33,775 nucleotides of DNA from a virus (Duplodnaviria > Heunggongvirae > Uroviricota > Caudoviricetes), in the IMG/VR virus record IMGVR_UViG_2671180456_000007, positions 1 through 33,775 of that record; one strand, written 5' to 3'. The position numbers and the translations under genes are program-made. Each line of letters starts with the position of its first letter. Position 1 is the first letter of the stretch. Positions 20,638 to 33,405 of this stretch are shown in pieces. A model generated the notes under the pieces. The model saw only the letters and a program-made list of their open reading frames with translations. It did no database searches and was not told the DNA's origin.

Positions 20638-20807
20638 AGAGATGATTGTCACTTTTTTCAACAGACAAATGAAAACAGTTACTAGCAATAGGCAATAACA
20701 ACCTACTAAATAACCTTTACACCGCAGCCGTAGGCATTTAGGCTATATCACATATAAGAAAACAAGTTGTTTCAGACGATAATTATATACGCAAAGGGAA
20801 CTCTCCA

Positions 20808-21476
20808 ATGACCAAGATCTTTGTGGTTGGCGGCACAAAGGGCGGGCCTGGCAAATCCACTGTTGCCCAGCAAATTGCCGTTTGCCTGAAAGTCAAAAAG
20901 AAGAAGAAGGTTTATATCACTGATATAGATATTCAGCGCACGACAACAAGCTGGTGTGAAGACCGTAGACAGAACGAAGACCTTGAGCTGATTCCTTTTG
21001 CATACGTTCAGGATGACATCATTAAGCACCTAAAATCGCTTCAGGGTAGAGCTGAGTTTGTAGTGGTAGATGCTGGTGGCTTTGACTCCGAAATTCAGCG
21101 ACAAGCGATGCTGATGGCCGACGTTATCATTATCCCGCTTCGTCCTAAGCGTCGTGATTTGAAATCTCTGCGTGACATCGATCCTATTATCGACAATGTT
21201 CGTAATGTAAACGATAAAGTGAAGGTCCGCGCGGTCATGAACCAGTGCCCGGCTTTGCCATCACAAGTGTCTCGCATTCTGGCGGCTAAAGAGATTGTTG
21301 AGACGTTTGGCATCGAGTCTGCGCCAGTCAATCTATATAACCGCAACGTCTACGATGATGCGGAAGAGTCTGGTCGTTCTATCTTTGAAATGACCGGTAG
21401 CGAGCGCGACAAAAAGGCGGAAGCCGAGTTTGAAGAATTTGTAGATTATCTGTTGAGTCTGGAGGAAGAAGAATAA
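20808..21476 (+). CDS. parA: ParA/Soj-family partition ATPase (small, type Ib-like)
   Basis: 222 aa; deviant Walker A motif GGTKGGPGKST near the N-terminus; followed by a small RHH-like protein gene overlapping by 1 nt. Confidence 0.85.
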   Translation: MTKIFVVGGTKGGPGKSTVAQQIAVCLKVKKKKKVYITDIDIQRTTTSWCEDRRQNEDLELIPFAYVQDDIIKHLKSLQGRAEFVVVDAGGFDSEIQRQAMLMADVIIIPLRPKRRDLKSLRDIDPIIDNVRNVNDKVKVRAVMNQCPALPSQVSRILAAKEIVETFGIESAPVNLYNRNVYDDAEESGRSIFEMTGSERDKKAEAEFEEFVDYLLSLEEEE

Positions 21477-21835
21477 TGTCCATGAAAATGGGTGACCTAG
21501 CAAAGCGCAAAGAGCCTGATGCACCGGCCAAGAACACAACTCCTTTGCGCCAACCAGTCAGACCACAGGGACGCCCGACTCGTGGCAAAGAGAAAATTAA
21601 AAGCCGCACAATGTCACTGGAGGACGAATACTTCGAACTGCTGGAGATGATGAAGTTCATCCCTCGCTTCGAGAAGTTCACTCGTTCTGACGTGATTCGT
21701 GCTGCTATTTTCCATCTGGCAGAGAAGTCACCGCAGGAAATCGAGGACATCGTGAAATTGAATGAGGCGATCACCGCTGCCGATGTCACGATGCGTACCG
21801 ATGAAATCAAACGAGAGTTGATGAAGAAAGGTTAA
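21476..21835 (+). CDS. Small ParG-like centromere-binding protein (basic disordered N-terminal tail plus ribbon-helix-helix-like C-terminus)
   Basis: 119 aa; Lys/Arg/Pro-rich N-terminal 45 aa then ...KSRTMSLEDEYFELLEMM...RSDVIRAAIFHLA; TAATG coupling to parA. Confidence 0.55.
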   Translation: MSMKMGDLAKRKEPDAPAKNTTPLRQPVRPQGRPTRGKEKIKSRTMSLEDEYFELLEMMKFIPRFEKFTRSDVIRAAIFHLAEKSPQEIEDIVKLNEAITAADVTMRTDEIKRELMKKG

Positions 21836-21838
21836 AAA

Positions 21839-21873
21839 TTATGCATTGGCGCAATGTACGCGCCAATGCATAA
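21839..21873. terminator. Bidirectional terminator hairpin between convergent genes (14-bp stem TTATGCATTGGCGC/GCGCCAATGCATAA, loop AATGTAC)
   Basis: Perfect 14-bp inverted repeat located between the parG-like stop (21835) and the GIY-YIG gene stop (21888). Confidence 0.6.
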
Positions 21874-21887
21874 CTACAGTGTCAGCT

Positions 21888-22655
21888 TTATGCCGCGCTA
21901 ACACTATGTTCAGTCCTAACCACCCCAACCTTCACAAAAGGGCTACCGTAGCTTGGTGGCTTCTTGATTAATTTGCCTACATACAGTTTTCTAATATGCT
22001 CATCGGCTATTCTGCCAACAAATTCATAACGTTTTGTGTCGGGGCCAAGAGCTATATCCCTTGTAAAGTACTGCTGAGAACCGGCTTTGACCCAGCATTC
22101 AATCTGATAAACTTCCATTATTAGCCCACCATATGTAGAGTAGGCATATTTGAGATTCTCGTCTCTTGGAACCTTTGCCCATACGCCACGCGTAGCTTCA
22201 TATAATGCCAGAGCGGACATTCCTGACTTGTAGGTGCTGTTTAGCAGGAAGGCAAGACCGGCGTGCTCAGGAGCAATTTCAGTTTCCTCTTGCAGCACTA
22301 AGTGATGGTAGGCGTCCAGTGATATTCTGCCCATCATGGAACCACTTCCTCGTACCTTATTCGTAAGCTCTCCGACCCCCATAAGGTCGATGCATGTCGC
22401 CTCAACAAGTTTGGCTGTGGTTTCATCCATACCATGACGAAGTATATCTATGCCTAATTTTTTATTAGCCAAAAGTTCTTTGATCCGCATGGATTTGGGA
22501 GAGTCATCGGGATACTTGATGTGATCGAGACAACGAGTCGATTTGCCTTTTCCTATGTAAAACGGTCTTTTCATCTTGTCTTCTGTATCATAGAGACAGT
22601 AAACATAGTATTTAGCCTTATCCAATGATCTCGCGTATACCGATAAATCGTCCAT
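21888..22655 (-). CDS. GIY-YIG-family nuclease with a ~150-aa C-terminal domain of unknown function (stand-alone, opposite strand)
   Basis: 255 aa; N-terminal motifs KYYVYCLYD ... PFYIGKGKSTRCLDH match the GIY ... YIG ... R ... H pattern of GIY-YIG nucleases; the C-terminal domain (…WAKVPRDENLKYAYSTYGGLIMEVYQIECWVKAG…) was not recognised. Confidence 0.7.
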   Translation of the reverse strand: MDDLSVYARSLDKAKYYVYCLYDTEDKMKRPFYIGKGKSTRCLDHIKYPDDSPKSMRIKELLANKKLGIDILRHGMDETTAKLVEATCIDLMGVGELTNKVRGSGSMMGRISLDAYHHLVLQEETEIAPEHAGLAFLLNSTYKSGMSALALYEATRGVWAKVPRDENLKYAYSTYGGLIMEVYQIECWVKAGSQQYFTRDIALGPDTKRYEFVGRIADEHIRKLYVGKLIKKPPSYGSPFVKVGVVRTEHSVSAA

Positions 22656-22766
22656 TATTGCATCTCTTTGCTACTGACTAATGCGTTCTATTTTACACAT
22701 AAGTTTTTAATCAATTTAACAGGCTCAAAGTGTAGAGCTTCTGGGCGTCTAAGACGACAAGTTATG

Positions 22767-22821
22767 CCTGCTTCTGTATATATAAATAATAAGTAACTTA
22801 TTAAATATATACGGAAGCAGG
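22767..22821. repeat. Nested near-perfect palindrome (17-bp arms CCTGCTTCTGTATATAT / ATATATACGGAAGCAGG around a palindromic 21-nt AT-rich core); candidate operator, origin or cruciform
   Basis: Arms at 22767-22783 and 22805-22821 with one mismatch; the core AATAAGTAACTTATT is itself palindromic; lies in a divergent intergenic region. Confidence 0.5.
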
Positions 22822-22937
22822 TCTTTTAAAAGACACCACCAGAACAACTCCCTTCCGTTTCCACTTCCAAAAACTGCCACCAGTCGCTATCATCCGCTCA
22901 TCGTGATAAGTAAGTAACTACCTACCAGGTGAGCCAC

Positions 22938-23678
22938 ATGAGCCAGATCTTTTTCGATACCATCGACAACGACCAGTACGACTTCATGACAGAGTGGAAT
23001 ACCGCTGTTATGGACAAGTGGGTCGCTGAAAACATTGGTTTGTCGCGCTGTAAAGACGAGGCTGAACTCTTCGAGACGAAGTGGTTTGATTACCGCGACA
23101 TGCATCCTCTCATGGCCACCTGTCTTTTTACGGAGGCATACAAACGTCAGTACTCAAATATCATGCTGACGCACGGTCGCGAACACTTTGAAACAGCTCC
23201 GTTCACCACCGGGTTAAAACGTCTGCCTTATCAGGAGTTGTCGACTGCCAACAAAACGTCGCTATGGAAAGCACGCCAGTTTGCGGATCGCTATTGCTGC
23301 TCATACGACTACTTTATCTCCACCGTTCTTTCCGCAGCTGCACGACGACTGTGGGACAAGCTGCCGCGTCCGCAGCATTTGTGGCAGCCAGAACTGATTG
23401 AGATATTCGAAGAGAAATTAGCCAGACGCGCAACAACCCGTCTGGATGACTCTCTGGTTAGCTTTAAGCATATGGGAGACATGCAGTTCAACCCGATTCA
23501 GGAAAGCTATTTTGAGTGGATTCTGGAGCGTTTGCGCACCATCCCCCGCAGCAAGCGCATACGCGCAATTTTCTCCGCTATCTGGCTAATGGAAATCGTT
23601 CCAGAGCGCCTTATTTCCGCCCACTTTCCAGAAGAACTGGAAGAAGCACGGCGGTTTATTGATCCCCTATCTAATTAA
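22938..23678 (+). CDS. Hypothetical protein, first gene of the replication module (possible helicase loader or accessory factor)
   Basis: ATG at 22938 with RBS AGGTGA upstream (the ORF-finder start at 22929 is a GTG); 247 aa, no recognisable motif; immediately upstream of the helicase gene. Confidence 0.6.
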   Translation: MSQIFFDTIDNDQYDFMTEWNTAVMDKWVAENIGLSRCKDEAELFETKWFDYRDMHPLMATCLFTEAYKRQYSNIMLTHGREHFETAPFTTGLKRLPYQELSTANKTSLWKARQFADRYCCSYDYFISTVLSAAARRLWDKLPRPQHLWQPELIEIFEEKLARRATTRLDDSLVSFKHMGDMQFNPIQESYFEWILERLRTIPRSKRIRAIFSAIWLMEIVPERLISAHFPEELEEARRFIDPLSN

Positions 23679-23721
23679 CTAATACTAGAAAACAATTTGT
23701 TTAAAAAACAAAGGAAAGCAC

Positions 23722-30624: not shown

Positions 30625-30699
30625 GATGGTGTAGCTCAGCGGTAGAGCAGTTGGCTGTTAACCAACTGGTCGGTGGTTCGAATCCACCCACCATCGCCA
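30625..30699 (+). tRNA. tRNA-Asn (anticodon GTT)
   Basis: Manual fold: acceptor GATGGTG/CACCATC, D-stem GCTC/GAGC, anticodon stem GTTGG/CCAAC with loop CTGTTAA, T-arm GGTGG-TTCGAAT-CCACC, discriminator G plus encoded CCA. Confidence 0.8.
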
Positions 30700-30704
30700 A
30701 TTTA

Positions 30705-30791
30705 GGGGAGTTAGTCCGTAGGGGCAGCGGGGTAGACTGTAAATCTACTGTCATTGCGACTCGGGTGGTTCGACTCCATCACTCCCCACCA
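30705..30791 (+). tRNA. tRNA-Tyr (anticodon GTA), class II with long variable arm
   Basis: Acceptor GGGGAGT/ACTCCCC, anticodon stem GTAGA/TCTAC with loop CTGTAAA, variable stem-loop, T-arm GGTGG-TTCGACT-CCATC, encoded CCA; the D-arm region is non-canonical (4-nt linker). Confidence 0.7.
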
Positions 30792-30795
30792 AATT

Positions 30796-30871
30796 GCCGG
30801 TTTAGCTCAGTTGGTAGAGCGTCTGCCTTGTAAGCAGGATGTCAGCGGTTCGATCCCGTTAACCGGCACCA
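30796..30871 (+). tRNA. tRNA-Thr (anticodon TGT)
   Basis: Acceptor GCCGGTT/AACCGGC, D-arm GCTC-AGTTGGTA-GAGC, anticodon stem TCTGC/GCAGG with loop CTTGTAA, T-arm AGCGG-TTCGATC-CCGTT, encoded CCA. Confidence 0.8.
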
Positions 30872-30872
30872 A

Positions 30873-30962
30873 CACAACAGGTAAGAGCATTGGGCGAATC
30901 GGCGATACTGACCCACAAGCCCGTAAATCGATAGAGTCAGACCAGTGCTCTTACCGTTGTGA
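30873..30962 (+). repeat. Long hairpin element B (terminal stem CACAACAGGTAAGAGCATTGG / CCAGTGCTCTTACCGTTGTG), directly abutting the tRNA-Thr 3' end
   Basis: About 20-bp inverted repeat with compensatory changes relative to elements A, C and D; begins 2 nt after the tRNA-Thr CCA. Confidence 0.5.
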
Positions 30963-31013
30963 GGAAGTGCAGCTCTTTGAAGCAACCAGAAGATAAGCAT
31001 CTGGCTTCACAAC

Positions 31014-31092
31014 ACAACGATAAGATCATTACGGTTAATCGTCGTTCATGTGCACAATGACTGGTCGAAAGGTAGTGATCTTACCGTTGTGA
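31014..31092 (+). repeat. Long hairpin element C (terminal stem CACAACGATAAGATCATTAC / GTAGTGATCTTACCGTTGTG)
   Basis: Inverted repeat with the same CACAACG ... CGTTGTG termini as elements A and B. Confidence 0.5.
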
Positions 31093-31191
31093 TGAATGCA
31101 CAGGCTGATGTGCCGCAACTACAGTAGTGCGCGCTTTGCGGGGGTTGCTACAACCCTGTGTCGGAGTTCAGCACCGACCATCACAATAGCT

Positions 31192-31278
31192 GGAGAGTAG
31201 GGAGCATGGTGCTCAAGCGGTCTTGAAAACCGTCCCATTGCGCAAGCGATGATGGTTCGATTCCATTACTCTCCGCCA
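31192..31278 (+). tRNA. tRNA-Ser (anticodon TGA), class II with long variable arm
   Basis: Acceptor GGAGAGT/ACTCTCC, D-stem GAGC/GCTC, anticodon stem GCGGT/ACCGT with loop CTTGAAA, variable arm ATTGC-GCAA-GCGAT, T-arm GATGG-TTCGATT-CCATT, discriminator G plus CCA. Confidence 0.8.
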
Positions 31279-31280
31279 GA

Positions 31281-31358
31281 CACAGCGTTGAGCGGTTTGG
31301 CCTTTTAATCACCCAGATTAAGACTCCGCTAACATAAACCAGACCGCTCAACGCTGTG
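31281..31358 (+). repeat. Long hairpin element D (terminal stem CACAGCGTTGAGCGGTTTGG / CCAGACCGCTCAACGCTGTG), directly abutting the tRNA-Ser 3' end
   Basis: 20-bp inverted repeat with one mismatch; termini CACAGCG ... CGCTGTG are a covarying variant of the A-C termini. Confidence 0.5.
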
Positions 31359-31432: not shown

Positions 31433-31456
31433 AAAGGGGCTTCGGCCCCTTTTTTG
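31433..31456 (+). terminator. Rho-independent terminator closing the tRNA cluster (stem AAAGGGGC/GCCCCTTT, loop TTCG, T6 tract)
   Basis: AAAGGGGCTTCGGCCCCTTTTTTG; a second weaker hairpin with a T tract lies at 31393-31419 (TTGCTA-ACATCC-TAGCAA-CAC-TTTTTT). Confidence 0.75.
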
Positions 31457-32170: not shown

Positions 32171-32203
32171 AATGATTCCATACCTACTATGTATGGAATC
32201 ATT
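32171..32203. promoter_or_regulatory. Inverted repeat AATGATTCCATAC-N7-GTATGGAATCATT about 100 bp upstream of the integrase gene; candidate operator or recombination site
   Basis: 13-bp arms are exact reverse complements; the same sequence occurs as single copies at 29404-29420 and 30418-30434. Confidence 0.45.
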
Positions 32204-32301: not shown

Positions 32302-33405
32302 ATGAAAAATAGCTTTGACAGAGCACGCGCTGCGGAGAACACCTCAAAAGAGGCGATAGAGTATCTCGAAAGAGCATCTCAAATGCAGGCCGTTATGATC
32401 TCCCAGGTCAGCAATGACATGAGATTCTCGGACGCATTCATGTTATTCACTCGCTTATCTCTGCTCATAACCAGACGTCGGCCAGAGATCGCTGTTCATT
32501 GTATTTTGATACATGTTTTTCCGCACATTGCCGATGTAAAAGTAAGTGATATTAATAGGTTCATGGTGAACCAACTGGTCAACCCACTAATACTGGATGG
32601 CAAAATTGTTATGGGCCGCCGCGTTTTCTCTCTGATGAAGCAGTTCCTTAGCTGGTGCGCCTTCCAGGGGATGATAGACGTGTCACCGTTAAACGATATG
32701 TCACTTAACAAAGTTGCCGGTGGCGCAAAGCCCACGCCCCGCGAGCGGAAGCTGACTGACGCAGAGGTATGGGTGTTCTGGAATATATGGGACTACTTCA
32801 ATGTGTGTGCTGGTACAAAATGGGCGGCCAGGCTATGTCTTGTATCCGCAAGACGACCTGACGAAGTACTGCGGGCTAAAAAAAGTGAGTTCAATCTTAA
32901 GCGTGGGGTTTGGAATCAAGGCAAGAGGAACAAATCTGCCCGTGAGCATTCTCTGCCTTTAAGCTCATTAATGCGCACTTGTATTGAAGAGTTGTTCGAA
33001 TATGGTAAAGACAGCCAGTGGCTCGTGCCTTCGAATAAAAAAATCGGGAAAGACCTTCCTATGTCTAAAGTGGCAATAGCCCAGGCATTACGTCGTATTC
33101 TGGAACGACCAGAACTGATGGAGCTTGAGCCATTTACACCCCGAGATTTGCGCCGTACTGCGCGTAGTTACTTCCCAGCATTAGGCATAAGCCAGGAGGT
33201 ATCACGTAAAATCATGAACCACAGTCTTGAGGGGATAGATCGGGTCTACGACCGGCACGATTATATGGACGAGATGCGAGACGCCTTAGAAAGTTTCTCG
33301 ACGTACATCGCATCAATCGTAGAGCAACCGGATTTAGACGAAATTGACCACAAATTTAAGGGAGATCGTCTATCAACAGAGCTTATTCGTGTAAATTTTT
33401 CATAG
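32302..33405 (+). CDS. int: Tyrosine recombinase / phage integrase (P4-like family)
   Basis: 367 aa; conserved catalytic regions ...LVSARRPDEVL... (box I Arg), ...FTPRDLRRTARSYF... (box II) and ...MNHSLEGIDRVYDRHDY (His ... Tyr nucleophile region). Arg replaces the usual box II His; the N-terminal arm-binding domain is atypical. Confidence 0.75.
   Translation: MKNSFDRARAAENTSKEAIEYLERASQMQAVMISQVSNDMRFSDAFMLFTRLSLLITRRRPEIAVHCILIHVFPHIADVKVSDINRFMVNQLVNPLILDGKIVMGRRVFSLMKQFLSWCAFQGMIDVSPLNDMSLNKVAGGAKPTPRERKLTDAEVWVFWNIWDYFNVCAGTKWAARLCLVSARRPDEVLRAKKSEFNLKRGVWNQGKRNKSAREHSLPLSSLMRTCIEELFEYGKDSQWLVPSNKKIGKDLPMSKVAIAQALRRILERPELMELEPFTPRDLRRTARSYFPALGISQEVSRKIMNHSLEGIDRVYDRHDYMDEMRDALESFSTYIASIVEQPDLDEIDHKFKGDRLSTELIRVNFS

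What the first reader, a model, noticed from the sequence alone, without database searches (positions are those of the whole stretch)
22767..22821. 55-bp nested palindrome in the divergent region between the nuclease gene and the replication module
17-bp arms (one mismatch) flank a 21-nt AT-rich core that is itself palindromic and contains TATAAATA. The size and symmetry are beyond what a simple terminator needs. It could be a cruciform-forming origin element, a bidirectional operator controlling the nuclease and replication genes, or a recombination site.
Basis: seen in the sequence. Interest (0 to 1): 0.42.

Follow-up and report, generated by a model that had tools for sequence, protein, structure and literature searches.

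The report
Repeated long-stem terminator palindrome, phage-plasmid
The 55-bp palindrome is real and is one of three near-identical copies found in every SSU5-type phage-plasmid, and this copy most likely forms a long RNA hairpin that stops transcription from running into the phage's DNA-replication genes, not an operator or a proven origin.

Summary
The palindrome at 22767-22821 is real and far beyond chance. The window is an SSU5/pHCM2-type phage-plasmid. The element is not unique. A complete close relative carries three copies with the same arms: before the replication module (this one), before the terminase genes, and after an adenine methyltransferase gene. All 101 instances placed by their flanks map to these three sites in Escherichia, Salmonella, Klebsiella and Yersinia elements. 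In the complete relative, SSU5 and Cyrano, copies behind a co-oriented gene start 22-24 nt after its stop codon, and the next start codon lies 108-116 nt on. The "nuclease" gene is variable GIY-YIG cargo, and homology to other relatives begins at the palindrome's left edge.

Best reading (about 0.5) is an unusually long-stem intrinsic terminator that insulates the replication operon:
- The stem base is GC-rich and followed by a conserved U-run.
- Published Cyrano RNA-seq shows a 9-fold to over 100-fold drop across the element.
- Distant relatives have an ordinary terminator at the same spot.

Three things exceed what a terminator needs: three sequence-conserved copies, variants shared between copies, and a wider flanking symmetry. 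A DNA-level role (origin, packaging, recombination) is therefore not excluded. The divergent-operator idea is not supported.

The parts
22767..22821 (+). 55-bp nested palindrome, the 'rep-site' copy of a three-copy family. It consists of GC-rich outer arms and an AT-rich inner palindrome.
   Evidence: It is 100% identical to the copy before terS in the complete relative pM-199-4197.
22767..22783 (+). Left outer arm, CCTGCTTCTGTATATAT. Position 9 (T) is polymorphic across relatives.
   Evidence: I1.
22805..22821 (+). Right outer arm, ATATATACGGAAGCAGG.
   Evidence: I1.
22822..22827 (+). U-run TCTTTT directly after the 3' arm, on the sense strand only.
   Evidence: The tail score is 2.57 on the sense strand and 0.49 on the antisense strand. 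94% of the distinct rep-site flank variants exceed the 95th percentile of background. The run is kept even where the following sequence differs.
22739..22744 (.). Outer inverted-repeat motif TTCTGG, 22 nt left of the palindrome. In other copies it reads (G)GTCTGGGAG.
   Evidence: Sequence. It recurs at all three sites and in otherwise unrelated left flanks.
22839..22844 (.). Partner motif CCAGAA, 17 nt right of the palindrome. In other copies it reads CTCCCAGAC(C).
22865..22893 (+). Sigma-70-like promoter candidate of the replication operon: TTCCAA, 17 nt, TATCAT.
   Evidence: Read. Both hexamers and the spacing are conserved in E. coli, Salmonella and Klebsiella relatives (TATCAT or TATGAT) while the spacer varies. 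The site was not listed by the consensus scan because the -35 matches only 3/6.
22938..23678 (+). First gene of the replication module. It encodes a 246-aa all-helical protein of unknown function (phrog_2500).
   Evidence: The AlphaFold model has pLDDT 77, with no significant fold match.
21888..22655 (-). GIY-YIG nuclease-domain gene. It is variable cargo and not part of the conserved element.
   Evidence: PF22945 at E = 5.5e-7. It is absent from Cyrano and SSU5, where other genes occupy the slot.
21839..21873 (-). Perfect 14-nt inverted repeat that has a T-run only on the - strand. It is read here as the terminator of the GIY-YIG gene. It has no U-run for + strand parA/parB-like transcripts.

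Best explanation
The window is part of an SSU5/pHCM2-type phage-plasmid. The palindrome is the replication-module copy of a three-copy family of conserved intergenic palindromes.

Mechanism proposed for this copy. + strand RNA transcribed through it folds into a hairpin of about 25 bp. The hairpin has an 18-bp outer stem with a GC-rich base, an AT-rich inner stem and a 3-nt loop, and it is followed at once by UCUUUU. It would act as a long-stem intrinsic terminator. Its job would be to stop transcripts of the constitutively expressed partition/cargo region (parA, the parB-like gene, then variable genes) from reading into the replication operon. That operon (246-aa protein, DnaB-like helicase, primase, ligase) has its own conserved promoter 43 nt further on.

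In this window the gene next to the palindrome has been replaced by an inverted GIY-YIG cargo gene, so the region only looks divergent. parA/parB-like read-through would still reach the palindrome, because the hairpin at 21839-21873 has its T-run on the other strand.

Shown: the structure, the three copies and their fixed positions, the conserved U-run, the expression drop in a close relative, and substitution by canonical terminators in distant relatives. Inferred: that termination happens at this hairpin in this element, and that the long stem serves to make it a tight or antitermination-resistant barrier.
For: 1. Identity of the element. The window is 99% identical to phage CMS-2020a and PhiR41_1 and related to Cyrano and SSU5. 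The 361-bp query around the palindrome is 100% identical in plasmid pM-199-4197.

2. Fixed position. Copies in pM-199-4197 lie at 33964, 66991 and 96029, all in the same orientation. Where the upstream gene is co-oriented, the palindrome starts 22-24 nt after its stop codon (ter and mtase sites of pM-199-4197; rep site of Cyrano and SSU5). The next ATG lies 108-116 nt downstream.

3. Fold. + strand RNA gives -30.2 kcal/mol, z = -8. The only arm mismatch is G.U on the sense strand. In the rep-site alignment, non-Watson-Crick cells are 24 G.U-type against 6 A.C-type.

4. U-run. The sense tail score averages 2.82 at rep sites (window 2.57). 94% of the distinct rep-site flank variants exceed the 95th percentile of background. 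The antisense score in the window is 0.49. The run is kept as TCTTTT, TCTTTTT or CTTTTTT while the sequence after it changes.

5. Expression. In E. coli LF82, which carries Cyrano, the co-oriented upstream gene CYRAN_30 reads log2 5.7-10.4. CYRAN_31, the orthologue of 22938-23678, reads 2.3-4.2, near the floor. This is 8.8-fold in LB and up to more than 100-fold in other conditions (PMC9928086, S1 table).

6. Functional substitution. Morganella-type relatives (L139, L141) have no palindrome. They carry a canonical terminator (TGGGAGCA, 12 nt, TGCTCCCA, then TTTCTTTC) about 110 nt before the orthologous ATG, even though their upstream gene is divergent. K. quasipneumoniae pKqq_SB1124_3 has a canonical terminator at the apex of a rearranged palindrome.

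7. Precedent. Stems longer than 14 bp make terminators resistant to processive antitermination (PMC10325885).
Against: 1. Only the rep copy has a convincing U-run. The terminase copy has none (mean tail score 1.55) and the methyltransferase copy is marginal (1.94). Termination therefore cannot be the property shared by all three copies.

2. The same 17-nt arms are kept at three paralogous sites and across genera whose flanks are only 75% identical. A terminator does not need this.

3. Arm substitutions are mostly one-sided (G.A, A.A, T.C, C.A). All four combinations occur at position 9. The RNAalifold covariation term is only -0.27. There is thus no positive evidence that pairing itself is selected.

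4. A wider symmetry (TCTGG...CCAGA) extends to about 110-140 bp at the terminase site.

5. In this window no co-oriented gene ends next to the hairpin.

6. The U-run is short (5 of 6 U). Its score is below classical terminators, which score 3.4-4.9.

7. No 3'-end mapping exists. The RNA-seq drop could partly reflect processing or mRNA stability.
Confidence: 0.5

Rival explanations
1. DNA-level symmetric element used in lytic DNA metabolism. The GC-rich arms would bind a dimeric phage protein, or the AT-rich centre would melt or extrude as a cruciform. The three copies would serve as lytic replication origins or unwinding elements, or as packaging-related sites. Any terminator activity of the rep copy would be a by-product.
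For: The primary sequence is conserved at three sites and across genera. Lineage-specific variants are shared between paralogous copies, for example GTATATTAAATAATAAAT in both the ter and mtase copies of two contigs. The core of about 35 bp is almost pure A/T. Wider symmetric flanks are present. Very distant relatives (TerL 59-64% identical) always have a large inverted repeat with GC-rich arms and an AT-rich centre between the 88-aa gene and terS, with unrelated sequence. The SSU5 and Cyrano linear records both begin inside the terminase-site palindrome. This copy lies next to helicase and primase genes.
Confidence: 0.2
2. RNA processing or stability element. The long double-stranded hairpin would be an RNase III site (as between phage T7 genes), or a 3' stabiliser or retro-regulator (as lambda tI/sib). 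It would separate or differentially stabilise the mRNAs of adjacent modules. The outer TCTGG/CCAGA pairing would form only in read-through transcripts.
For: The nearly continuous helix of about 25 bp is long enough for RNase III. There are three intergenic copies at module boundaries. The terminase copy lacks a U-run but extends the helix symmetrically instead. The 3' arm of the outer repeat lies beyond the U-run. What is known of T7 RNase III sites and of lambda sib is from my own knowledge.
Against: There are no cleavage data. Sense-strand mismatches (C.A, T.C) are tolerated in Klebsiella methyltransferase-site copies. There is no covariation signal. The palindrome can be inverted relative to its flanks (L088).
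Confidence: 0.1
3. Recombination 'linker'. The conserved cassette (stem-loop plus promoter) would mainly act as a substrate for homologous or site-specific recombination that swaps cargo genes, like the PeSL cassettes of T4-type phages.
For: The homology breakpoint with Cyrano, SSU5 and CMS-2020a (SCU-175) falls at 22757-22767. Most plasmid hits start at query position 26-28, which is the first base of the palindrome. At least 12 unrelated left flanks abut the palindrome. Variants are shared between copies, and inverted or 'inside-out' versions exist. PeSLs are described as composite terminator/promoter motifs that mediate shuffling (PMC2839356, PMC4122927).
Against: Only the rep site is a mosaic junction. 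Both flanks of the other two copies are conserved in all lineages. The breakpoint pattern is equally expected if a selected element simply borders a cargo slot. Three directly repeated recombination sites would risk deleting 29-50 kb of essential genes.
Confidence: 0.08
4. Bidirectional operator, or dispersed centromere. A dimeric regulator or ParB-like protein would bind the palindrome to control the flanking divergent genes, or to partition the plasmid (compare the dispersed centromeres of N15 and the KorB operators of RK2).
For: The site is palindromic and multi-copy, and it lies 930 bp downstream of a parA / small-partner gene pair. Two ParB-N-domain genes lie upstream of the terminase copy. 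The N15 and RK2 precedents are from my own knowledge.
Against: The nuclease gene is cargo, and the divergent arrangement is specific to this lineage. The palindrome lies 43 nt upstream of the -35 of the replication promoter, with its centre at about -106, and about 50 nt beyond the nuclease promoter-like site. A different dispersed 13-bp palindrome, AAACAANTTGTTT, has about 21 copies placed next to -10-like boxes. It is a much better operator candidate. No repeats resembling the palindrome lie next to parA.
Confidence: 0.05

Closest known systems
Intrinsic (Rho-independent) terminators with extraordinarily long stems, e.g. TerR of Bacillus plasmid pLS20 (PMC10325885)
   Same: A hairpin with a GC-rich base followed by a U-run, at the end of one transcription unit of a mobile element. 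The stem is far longer than the 7-9 bp norm. It is imperfect and its loop is irrelevant. It is thought to form a tight barrier between operons.
   Different: TerR has a 15-bp stem, a 10-U tail, and is a single copy defined by experiment. Here the helix is about 25 bp and the U-run is only 5 of 6. There are three sequence-conserved copies, two of which have poor U-runs. No antitermination system has been demonstrated in this element.
PeSL (promoter-early stem-loop) cassettes of T4-type phages (PMC2839356, PMC4122927)
   Same: Sequence-conserved composite terminator-stem-loop plus promoter cassettes, repeated within one phage genome. They sit in intergenic regions and coincide with insertion, deletion and replacement junctions of accessory genes.
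   Different: PeSLs have short stems, occur in dozens of copies, and lie inside hyperplastic regions. Here there are exactly three copies at fixed, orthologous module boundaries. The palindrome is 55 bp and AT-rich in the centre, and only one copy is a mosaic junction.
Lambda tI/sib and phage T7 intergenic RNase III sites (own knowledge)
   Same: Intergenic hairpins of similar length between phage modules. In sib, a terminator hairpin becomes a longer RNase III substrate only in read-through transcripts. The outer TCTGG/CCAGA pairing could allow the same here.
   Different: No processing evidence exists for this element. The arms tolerate sense-strand mismatches.
AT-centred palindromic replication origins, e.g. 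herpes simplex oriS/oriL (own knowledge)
   Same: An AT-rich centre flanked by inverted GC-richer arms, several copies per genome, and a location between transcription units next to replication genes.
   Different: No origin-binding protein, no skew or other replication signal, and the rep copy is replaceable by an ordinary terminator in relatives.

Membership tests
Intrinsic terminator | Stable RNA stem-loop with a GC-rich stem base on the transcribed strand | tested here: met
   The fold is -30.2 kcal/mol, z = -8.0. The stem base is CCUGCUUC/GGAAGCAGG.
Intrinsic terminator | U-rich tract immediately 3' of the stem | tested here: met
   UCUUUU at 22822-27, tail score 2.57, above the 95th percentile of background but below classical terminators (3.4-4.9). 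It is conserved at rep sites. It is poor at the terminase copy and marginal at the methyltransferase copy.
Intrinsic terminator | Lies at the 3' end of a co-oriented transcription unit | tested here: inconclusive
   It lies 22-24 nt after a co-oriented stop codon in Cyrano and SSU5 and at the other two sites. In this window the adjacent gene is divergent. Only parA/parB-like read-through, from 930 nt upstream, could reach it.
Intrinsic terminator | Transcript abundance falls across the element | tested here: met
   This was tested in the relative Cyrano, not in this element. CYRAN_30 reads log2 5.7-10.4 and CYRAN_31 reads 2.3-4.2 (PMC9928086, S1 table). No 3'-end mapping is available.
Intrinsic terminator | Stem of ordinary size (about 7-11 bp), with a sequence free to drift by compensatory change | tested here: not met
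   The helix is about 25 bp. The arms are nearly invariant at three sites, and the covariation term is -0.27.
Antitermination-resistant long-stem terminator (TerR type) | Stem longer than 14 bp at the end of an operon | tested here: met
   The outer stem is 18 bp and the inner stem 7 bp. The criterion is from PMC10325885.
Antitermination-resistant long-stem terminator (TerR type) | A processive antitermination system operates in the same element | not testable with these tools
   There is only a hint: a GC hairpin plus U-run in the leader just before terS in relatives.
Operator of divergent promoters | Overlaps or abuts the -35/-10 of the regulated promoters | tested here: not met
   The palindrome ends 43 nt before the conserved -35 at 22865. 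The nuclease gene's promoter-like site lies at about 22680-22715.
Operator of divergent promoters | Co-occurs with the regulated gene pair across relatives | tested here: not met
   The nuclease gene is absent in Cyrano, SSU5 and many plasmids that keep the palindrome. Two further copies have other neighbours.
Replication origin | AT-rich unwinding element flanked by initiator-binding repeats | tested here: inconclusive
   The AT-rich core and inverted arms are present. No iterons were found and no binding protein is known.
Replication origin | Adjacent or cognate initiator protein | tested here: inconclusive
Replication origin | Strand-composition switch at the site | tested here: not met
   Skew is positive almost throughout, with no switch at any of the three copies. 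The test is weak because nearly all genes are co-oriented.
PeSL-like mobile regulatory cassette | Conserved stem-loop plus promoter, repeated in one genome, at accessory-gene junctions | tested here: inconclusive
   Three conserved copies are each followed by a promoter-like region. Only the rep copy is a mosaic junction.

The most novel reading that the evidence does not exclude
The three palindromes would form one conserved, concertedly evolving family of symmetric DNA elements of about 110-140 bp. Each has TCTGG, GC arms, an AT core, GC arms, then CCAGA. Their primary role would be in lytic DNA transactions of SSU5-type phage-plasmids, such as origin or unwinding sites, or packaging or cruciform-recognition sites. 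The founding member would be the ancient palindrome in front of terS. The replication-module copy would be a later duplicate that acquired a U-run and doubles as a terminator.
Probability: 0.25. Interest if true: 0.6.

Novelty: new variant of a known kind. Interest (0 to 1): 0.38.

Why it matters
SSU5/pHCM2/pMT1-type phage-plasmids are common in clinical Enterobacteriaceae. The palindrome is present in 255 of 5,426 complete E. coli genomes, always on plasmids of roughly 100-140 kb. These elements carry resistance genes, yet their regulation is essentially unstudied and this element is annotated in none of the records examined.

- If it is a tight insulator in front of the lytic replication operon, it helps explain how the element stays a quiet low-copy plasmid while its partition and cargo genes are expressed.
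- It marks the fixed right-hand border of the slot where cargo genes are exchanged.
- If the three copies turn out to be DNA-level sites (origin or packaging), they would give the first handle on lytic replication or packaging of this family.
- For assembly and annotation, the three identical 55-bp palindromes are likely break points of assemblies. Two reference phage records are linearised inside one of them.

Tried and rejected
- **Rfam.** An E-value-mode search of 22600-23000 gave only sub-threshold miRNA-precursor look-alikes, i.e. generic hairpins.
- **Consensus scan.** The promoter/terminator scan did not list the element, because its loop and bulge rules exclude it. It also missed the conserved TTCCAA-17-TATCAT site.
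- **Orientation by ORFs.** Orienting the IMG/VR instances by flanking ORFs was too noisy. I replaced it with flank BLAST to the complete relative.
- **Covariation.** Tests for base-pair selection were uninformative. The pairs are almost invariant, and one arm was fixed by the search pattern, which is an ascertainment bias.
- **Centromere idea.** No palindrome-like repeats lie next to parA.
- **Origin idea.** The neighbouring 246-aa protein gave no Pfam, PDB-sequence or significant fold match. GC skew was uninformative.
- **Literature.** Searches for SSU5/pHCM2/pMT1 palindromes, terminators or genome termini found nothing relevant. One preprint on phage-plasmid heteroresistance could not be opened.
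- **Chance matches.** Single-arm matches in unrelated IMG/VR contigs are chance hits inside coding sequence.
- **Unavailable resource.** The afdb50 fold library was not available.

Full report
**Observation**

The sequence at 22767-22821 is CCTGCTTCTGTATATATAAATAATAAGTAACTTATTAAATATATACGGAAGCAGG. The repeat finder reports 17-nt arms (16/17 complementary) separated by 21 nt. It also reports an inner AT-rich inverted repeat of 16 nt (88%) around a single central base. The whole is therefore a 55-bp imperfect palindrome.

An inverted repeat of this quality occurs at only two loci in the window and in none of 100 dinucleotide-preserving shuffles.
- As + strand RNA it folds to -30.2 kcal/mol, z = -8.0.
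- As - strand RNA it folds to -23.7 kcal/mol.
- As ssDNA it folds to -16.3 kcal/mol.

The single arm mismatch is T:G, a wobble pair only in + strand RNA.

**What the window is**

The region is 98-99% identical to Escherichia phages CMS-2020a and PhiR41_1 and related to Cyrano and Salmonella phage SSU5. The 361 bp around the palindrome are 100% identical in E. coli plasmid pM-199-4197. This is an SSU5/pHCM2-type phage-plasmid.

Genes to the left of the palindrome:
- parA-like ATPase, 20808-21476.
- A 119-aa partner gene, 21476-21835.
- A - strand GIY-YIG nuclease-domain gene, 21888-22655.

Genes to the right:
- A 246-aa protein of unknown function, 22938-23678.
- A DnaB-like helicase, a primase and further genes.

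**The divergent arrangement is a local accident**

In Cyrano and SSU5 the gene upstream of the palindrome is a different, co-oriented gene. It ends 22-24 nt before the palindrome. Homology between the window and these phages begins at window 22757-22767. Among 824 matching plasmids, most alignments start at query position 26-28, the first base of the palindrome. At least a dozen unrelated left flanks abut it. The nuclease gene is therefore exchangeable cargo, and the palindrome is the fixed right border of the cargo slot.

**The palindrome is a three-copy family**

Yersinia pestis pMT1 and a Klebsiella phage matched the query only over the palindrome. There it lies between an 88-aa gene and the small and large terminase genes.

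In the complete relative pM-199-4197 there are exactly three copies:
- One before the replication module, which is the window's copy.
- One before terS, 55/55 identical to the window's copy.
- One after an N6-adenine methyltransferase gene, with the same arms and a different AT-rich centre.

All three share one orientation relative to transcription. Behind a co-oriented gene, the palindrome starts 22-24 nt after the stop codon. The next ATG follows 108-116 nt later.

A pattern scan of IMG/VR gave 104 palindromes. The 101 outside the reference relative all map by flank BLAST to these three sites. The elements come from Escherichia, Salmonella, Klebsiella, Yersinia and others, with flanks down to 75% identity. 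The remaining single-arm matches are chance hits in coding DNA.

In 5,426 complete E. coli genomes the palindrome occurs in 255. It is always on plasmids of roughly 100-140 kb, never on chromosomes, with 1-3 places per genome, and it is never annotated.

**Evidence that this copy is a terminator**

1. The GC-rich stem base is followed at once by TCTTTT. The U-tail score at rep sites averages 2.82 (window 2.57). 94% of the distinct rep-site flank variants exceed the 95th percentile of background. The antisense side of the window scores 0.49.
2. The U-run persists (TCTTTT, TCTTTTT, CTTTTTT) while the sequence after it differs between lineages. It persists even where the upstream gene is divergent, as in L133.
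3. In the rep-site alignment the non-Watson-Crick cells are mostly G.U on the sense strand, 24 against 6 A.C. These cells are not independent events.
4. Published RNA-seq of E. coli LF82 carrying Cyrano shows a sharp drop. The co-oriented upstream gene CYRAN_30 reads log2 5.7-10.4. CYRAN_31, directly behind the palindrome, reads 2.3-4.2, near the floor. The drop is 8.8-fold in LB and over 100-fold in several conditions (PMC9928086, S1 table).
5. In more distant relatives the position keeps a + strand terminator while the palindrome is lost. Morganella-type elements carry TGGGAGCA, 12 nt, TGCTCCCA, then TTTCTTTC, about 110 nt before the orthologous ATG. They do so although their upstream gene is divergent. 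K. quasipneumoniae pKqq_SB1124_3 has a classical A-tract/GC-stem/U-tract terminator at the apex of a rearranged, 'inside-out' version of the palindrome.
6. A conserved sigma-70-like promoter (TTCCAA, 17 nt, TATCAT or TATGAT; window 22865-22893) lies 43 nt behind the palindrome. This gives a terminator-then-promoter arrangement.
7. In this window the hairpin at 21839-21873 has its T-run on the - strand, so it serves the nuclease gene. parA/parB-like transcripts are thus likely to read on towards the palindrome.
8. Stems above 14 bp are known to make terminators resistant to processive antitermination (PMC10325885). A GC hairpin plus U-run in the leader of terS hints that late genes here may be under antitermination.

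**What the terminator reading does not explain**

- The terminase copy has no U-run (score 1.55) and the methyltransferase copy is marginal (1.94).
- The arms are almost invariant at three paralogous sites. Changes are mostly one-sided (G.A, A.A, T.C, C.A), and position 9 shows all four combinations. One arm was fixed by my search pattern, which inflates this conservation. Less biased Klebsiella examples still keep the arms, with one to four changes.
- Lineage-specific variants are shared between copies of one genome, which indicates gene conversion or co-evolution with a partner.
- The palindrome can be inverted relative to its flanks (L088).
- A wider inverted repeat, (G)GTCTGGGAG ... CTCCCAGAC(C), flanks the palindrome at all three sites. 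In the window it is TTCTGG at 22739-44 and CCAGAA at 22839-44. At the terminase site the symmetry extends to about 140 bp and -50 to -60 kcal/mol.
- A Raoultella relative keeps the palindrome with three two-sided, symmetry-preserving substitutions. Either a hairpin or a dimer-binding site would produce this.
- Very distant relatives (TerL 59-64% identical) always have a large inverted repeat with GC-rich arms and an AT-rich centre in front of terS, with unrelated sequence.
- The linear records of SSU5 and Cyrano both start inside the terminase-site palindrome. This may be a physical end or merely an assembly break at a repeat. One IMG/VR contig is truncated there as well.

**Rivals**

*DNA-level role (origin, unwinding element, packaging or cruciform site).* This remains possible for the family as a whole. 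No binding protein was found. The neighbouring 246-aa protein gave no Pfam or PDB match and no significant fold match. The plasmid replicon lies 34 kb away. GC skew shows no switch.

*RNase III or retro-regulation.* This fits the helix length and the outer pairing but is untested.

*Recombination linker.* A role like the PeSL cassettes of T4-type phages (PMC2839356, PMC4122927) fits the mosaic junction at this copy. It does not fit the other two copies, whose flanks are conserved.

*Divergent operator.* This idea fails on position and on co-occurrence. A different dispersed 13-bp palindrome, AAACAANTTGTTT, has about 21 copies beside -10-like boxes and is the better operator candidate.

**Verdict**

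This copy is most likely an unusually long-stem intrinsic terminator and insulator in front of the replication operon, with confidence about 0.5. It belongs to an undescribed, conserved three-copy palindrome family whose common function is not settled.

I class it as a new variant of a known kind, of moderate interest. Rfam holds nothing like it and I found no literature on it.

Noticed in passing
window 20760-20772 and 23690-23702; about 21 sites in L007+L008+L009: A second dispersed motif: the 13-bp palindrome AAACAANTTGTTT. It is usually preceded by ...ACAC, about 6 nt, then (T/C)ATAAGA (a -10-like box). An SD and ATG follow 10-35 nt later. It occurs upstream of parA and of the helicase gene, and twice before terS. 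It is a candidate promoter/operator set of a global phage regulator.
   Followed up: partly
window 21839-21873: A perfect 14-nt inverted repeat (TTATGCATTGGCGC, 7 nt, GCGCCAATGCATAA) between the convergent parB-like gene and the GIY-YIG gene. Its T-run is on the - strand only, so it is probably the unidirectional terminator of the cargo gene.
   Followed up: partly
window 21888-22655 (-): A 255-aa protein with a LEM-3-like GIY-YIG nuclease domain (PF22945, phrog_5356). It sits in an exchangeable slot between the partition genes and the palindrome. It may be a free-standing homing endonuclease.
   Followed up: no
window 22850-22868: The box CCCTTCCGTTTCCACTTCC, just upstream of and overlapping the -35 of the replication-operon promoter. 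It is strongly conserved from E. coli to Klebsiella relatives and may be a regulator-binding site.
   Followed up: no
window 30625-31278 and 31281-31358: A cluster of four tRNA genes (Asn, Tyr, Thr, Ser). Immediately after it lies a second long inverted repeat with 20-nt arms (95% complementary) and a 38-nt spacer. A classical terminator, AAAGGGGCTTCGGCCCCTTTTTT, follows near 31434-31456.
   Followed up: no
window 32171-32203: A 33-bp palindrome, AATGATTCCATACCTA C TATGTATGGAATCATT, about 100 nt upstream of the site-specific integrase gene (32302-33405). It may be a recombinase or regulator site.
   Followed up: no
L008, terminase site (pM-199-4197 about 66875-66990); also L004, L005, L135, L137: Between the terminase-site palindrome and terS lie two AAACAAGTTGKTT motifs. 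They are followed by a GC hairpin (AGAGCGC, 6 nt, GCGCTCT) and GTGTGTTTT just before the terS ribosome-binding site. This looks like a leader terminator, which suggests late genes are controlled by antitermination.
   Followed up: no
L135-L138 (ends of the Cyrano OV696614.1 and SSU5 NC_018843.1 records): Both linear phage records start and end inside the terminase-site copy of the palindrome (...ACTTATTA | AATATATACGGAAGCAGG...). This is either a real virion end or an assembly break at a repeated palindrome.
   Followed up: partly
L129 2640-2880 (K. quasipneumoniae pKqq_SB1124_3): An 'inside-out' version of the element. The right half of the palindrome comes first, then CTCCCAGA, a canonical terminator, TCTGGGG, and the left half. 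Together they form a hairpin of about 230 nt at -80 kcal/mol.
   Followed up: partly
L139 about 2860-2880 and L148 about 2325-2345 (Morganella psychrotolerans contig LZEW01000035.1): In this distant relative a different motif, TATGGGAGCACGGCTTAGA, recurs at both the replication-module and the terminase intergenic regions. This suggests lineage-specific shared cassettes at the same sites.
   Followed up: no
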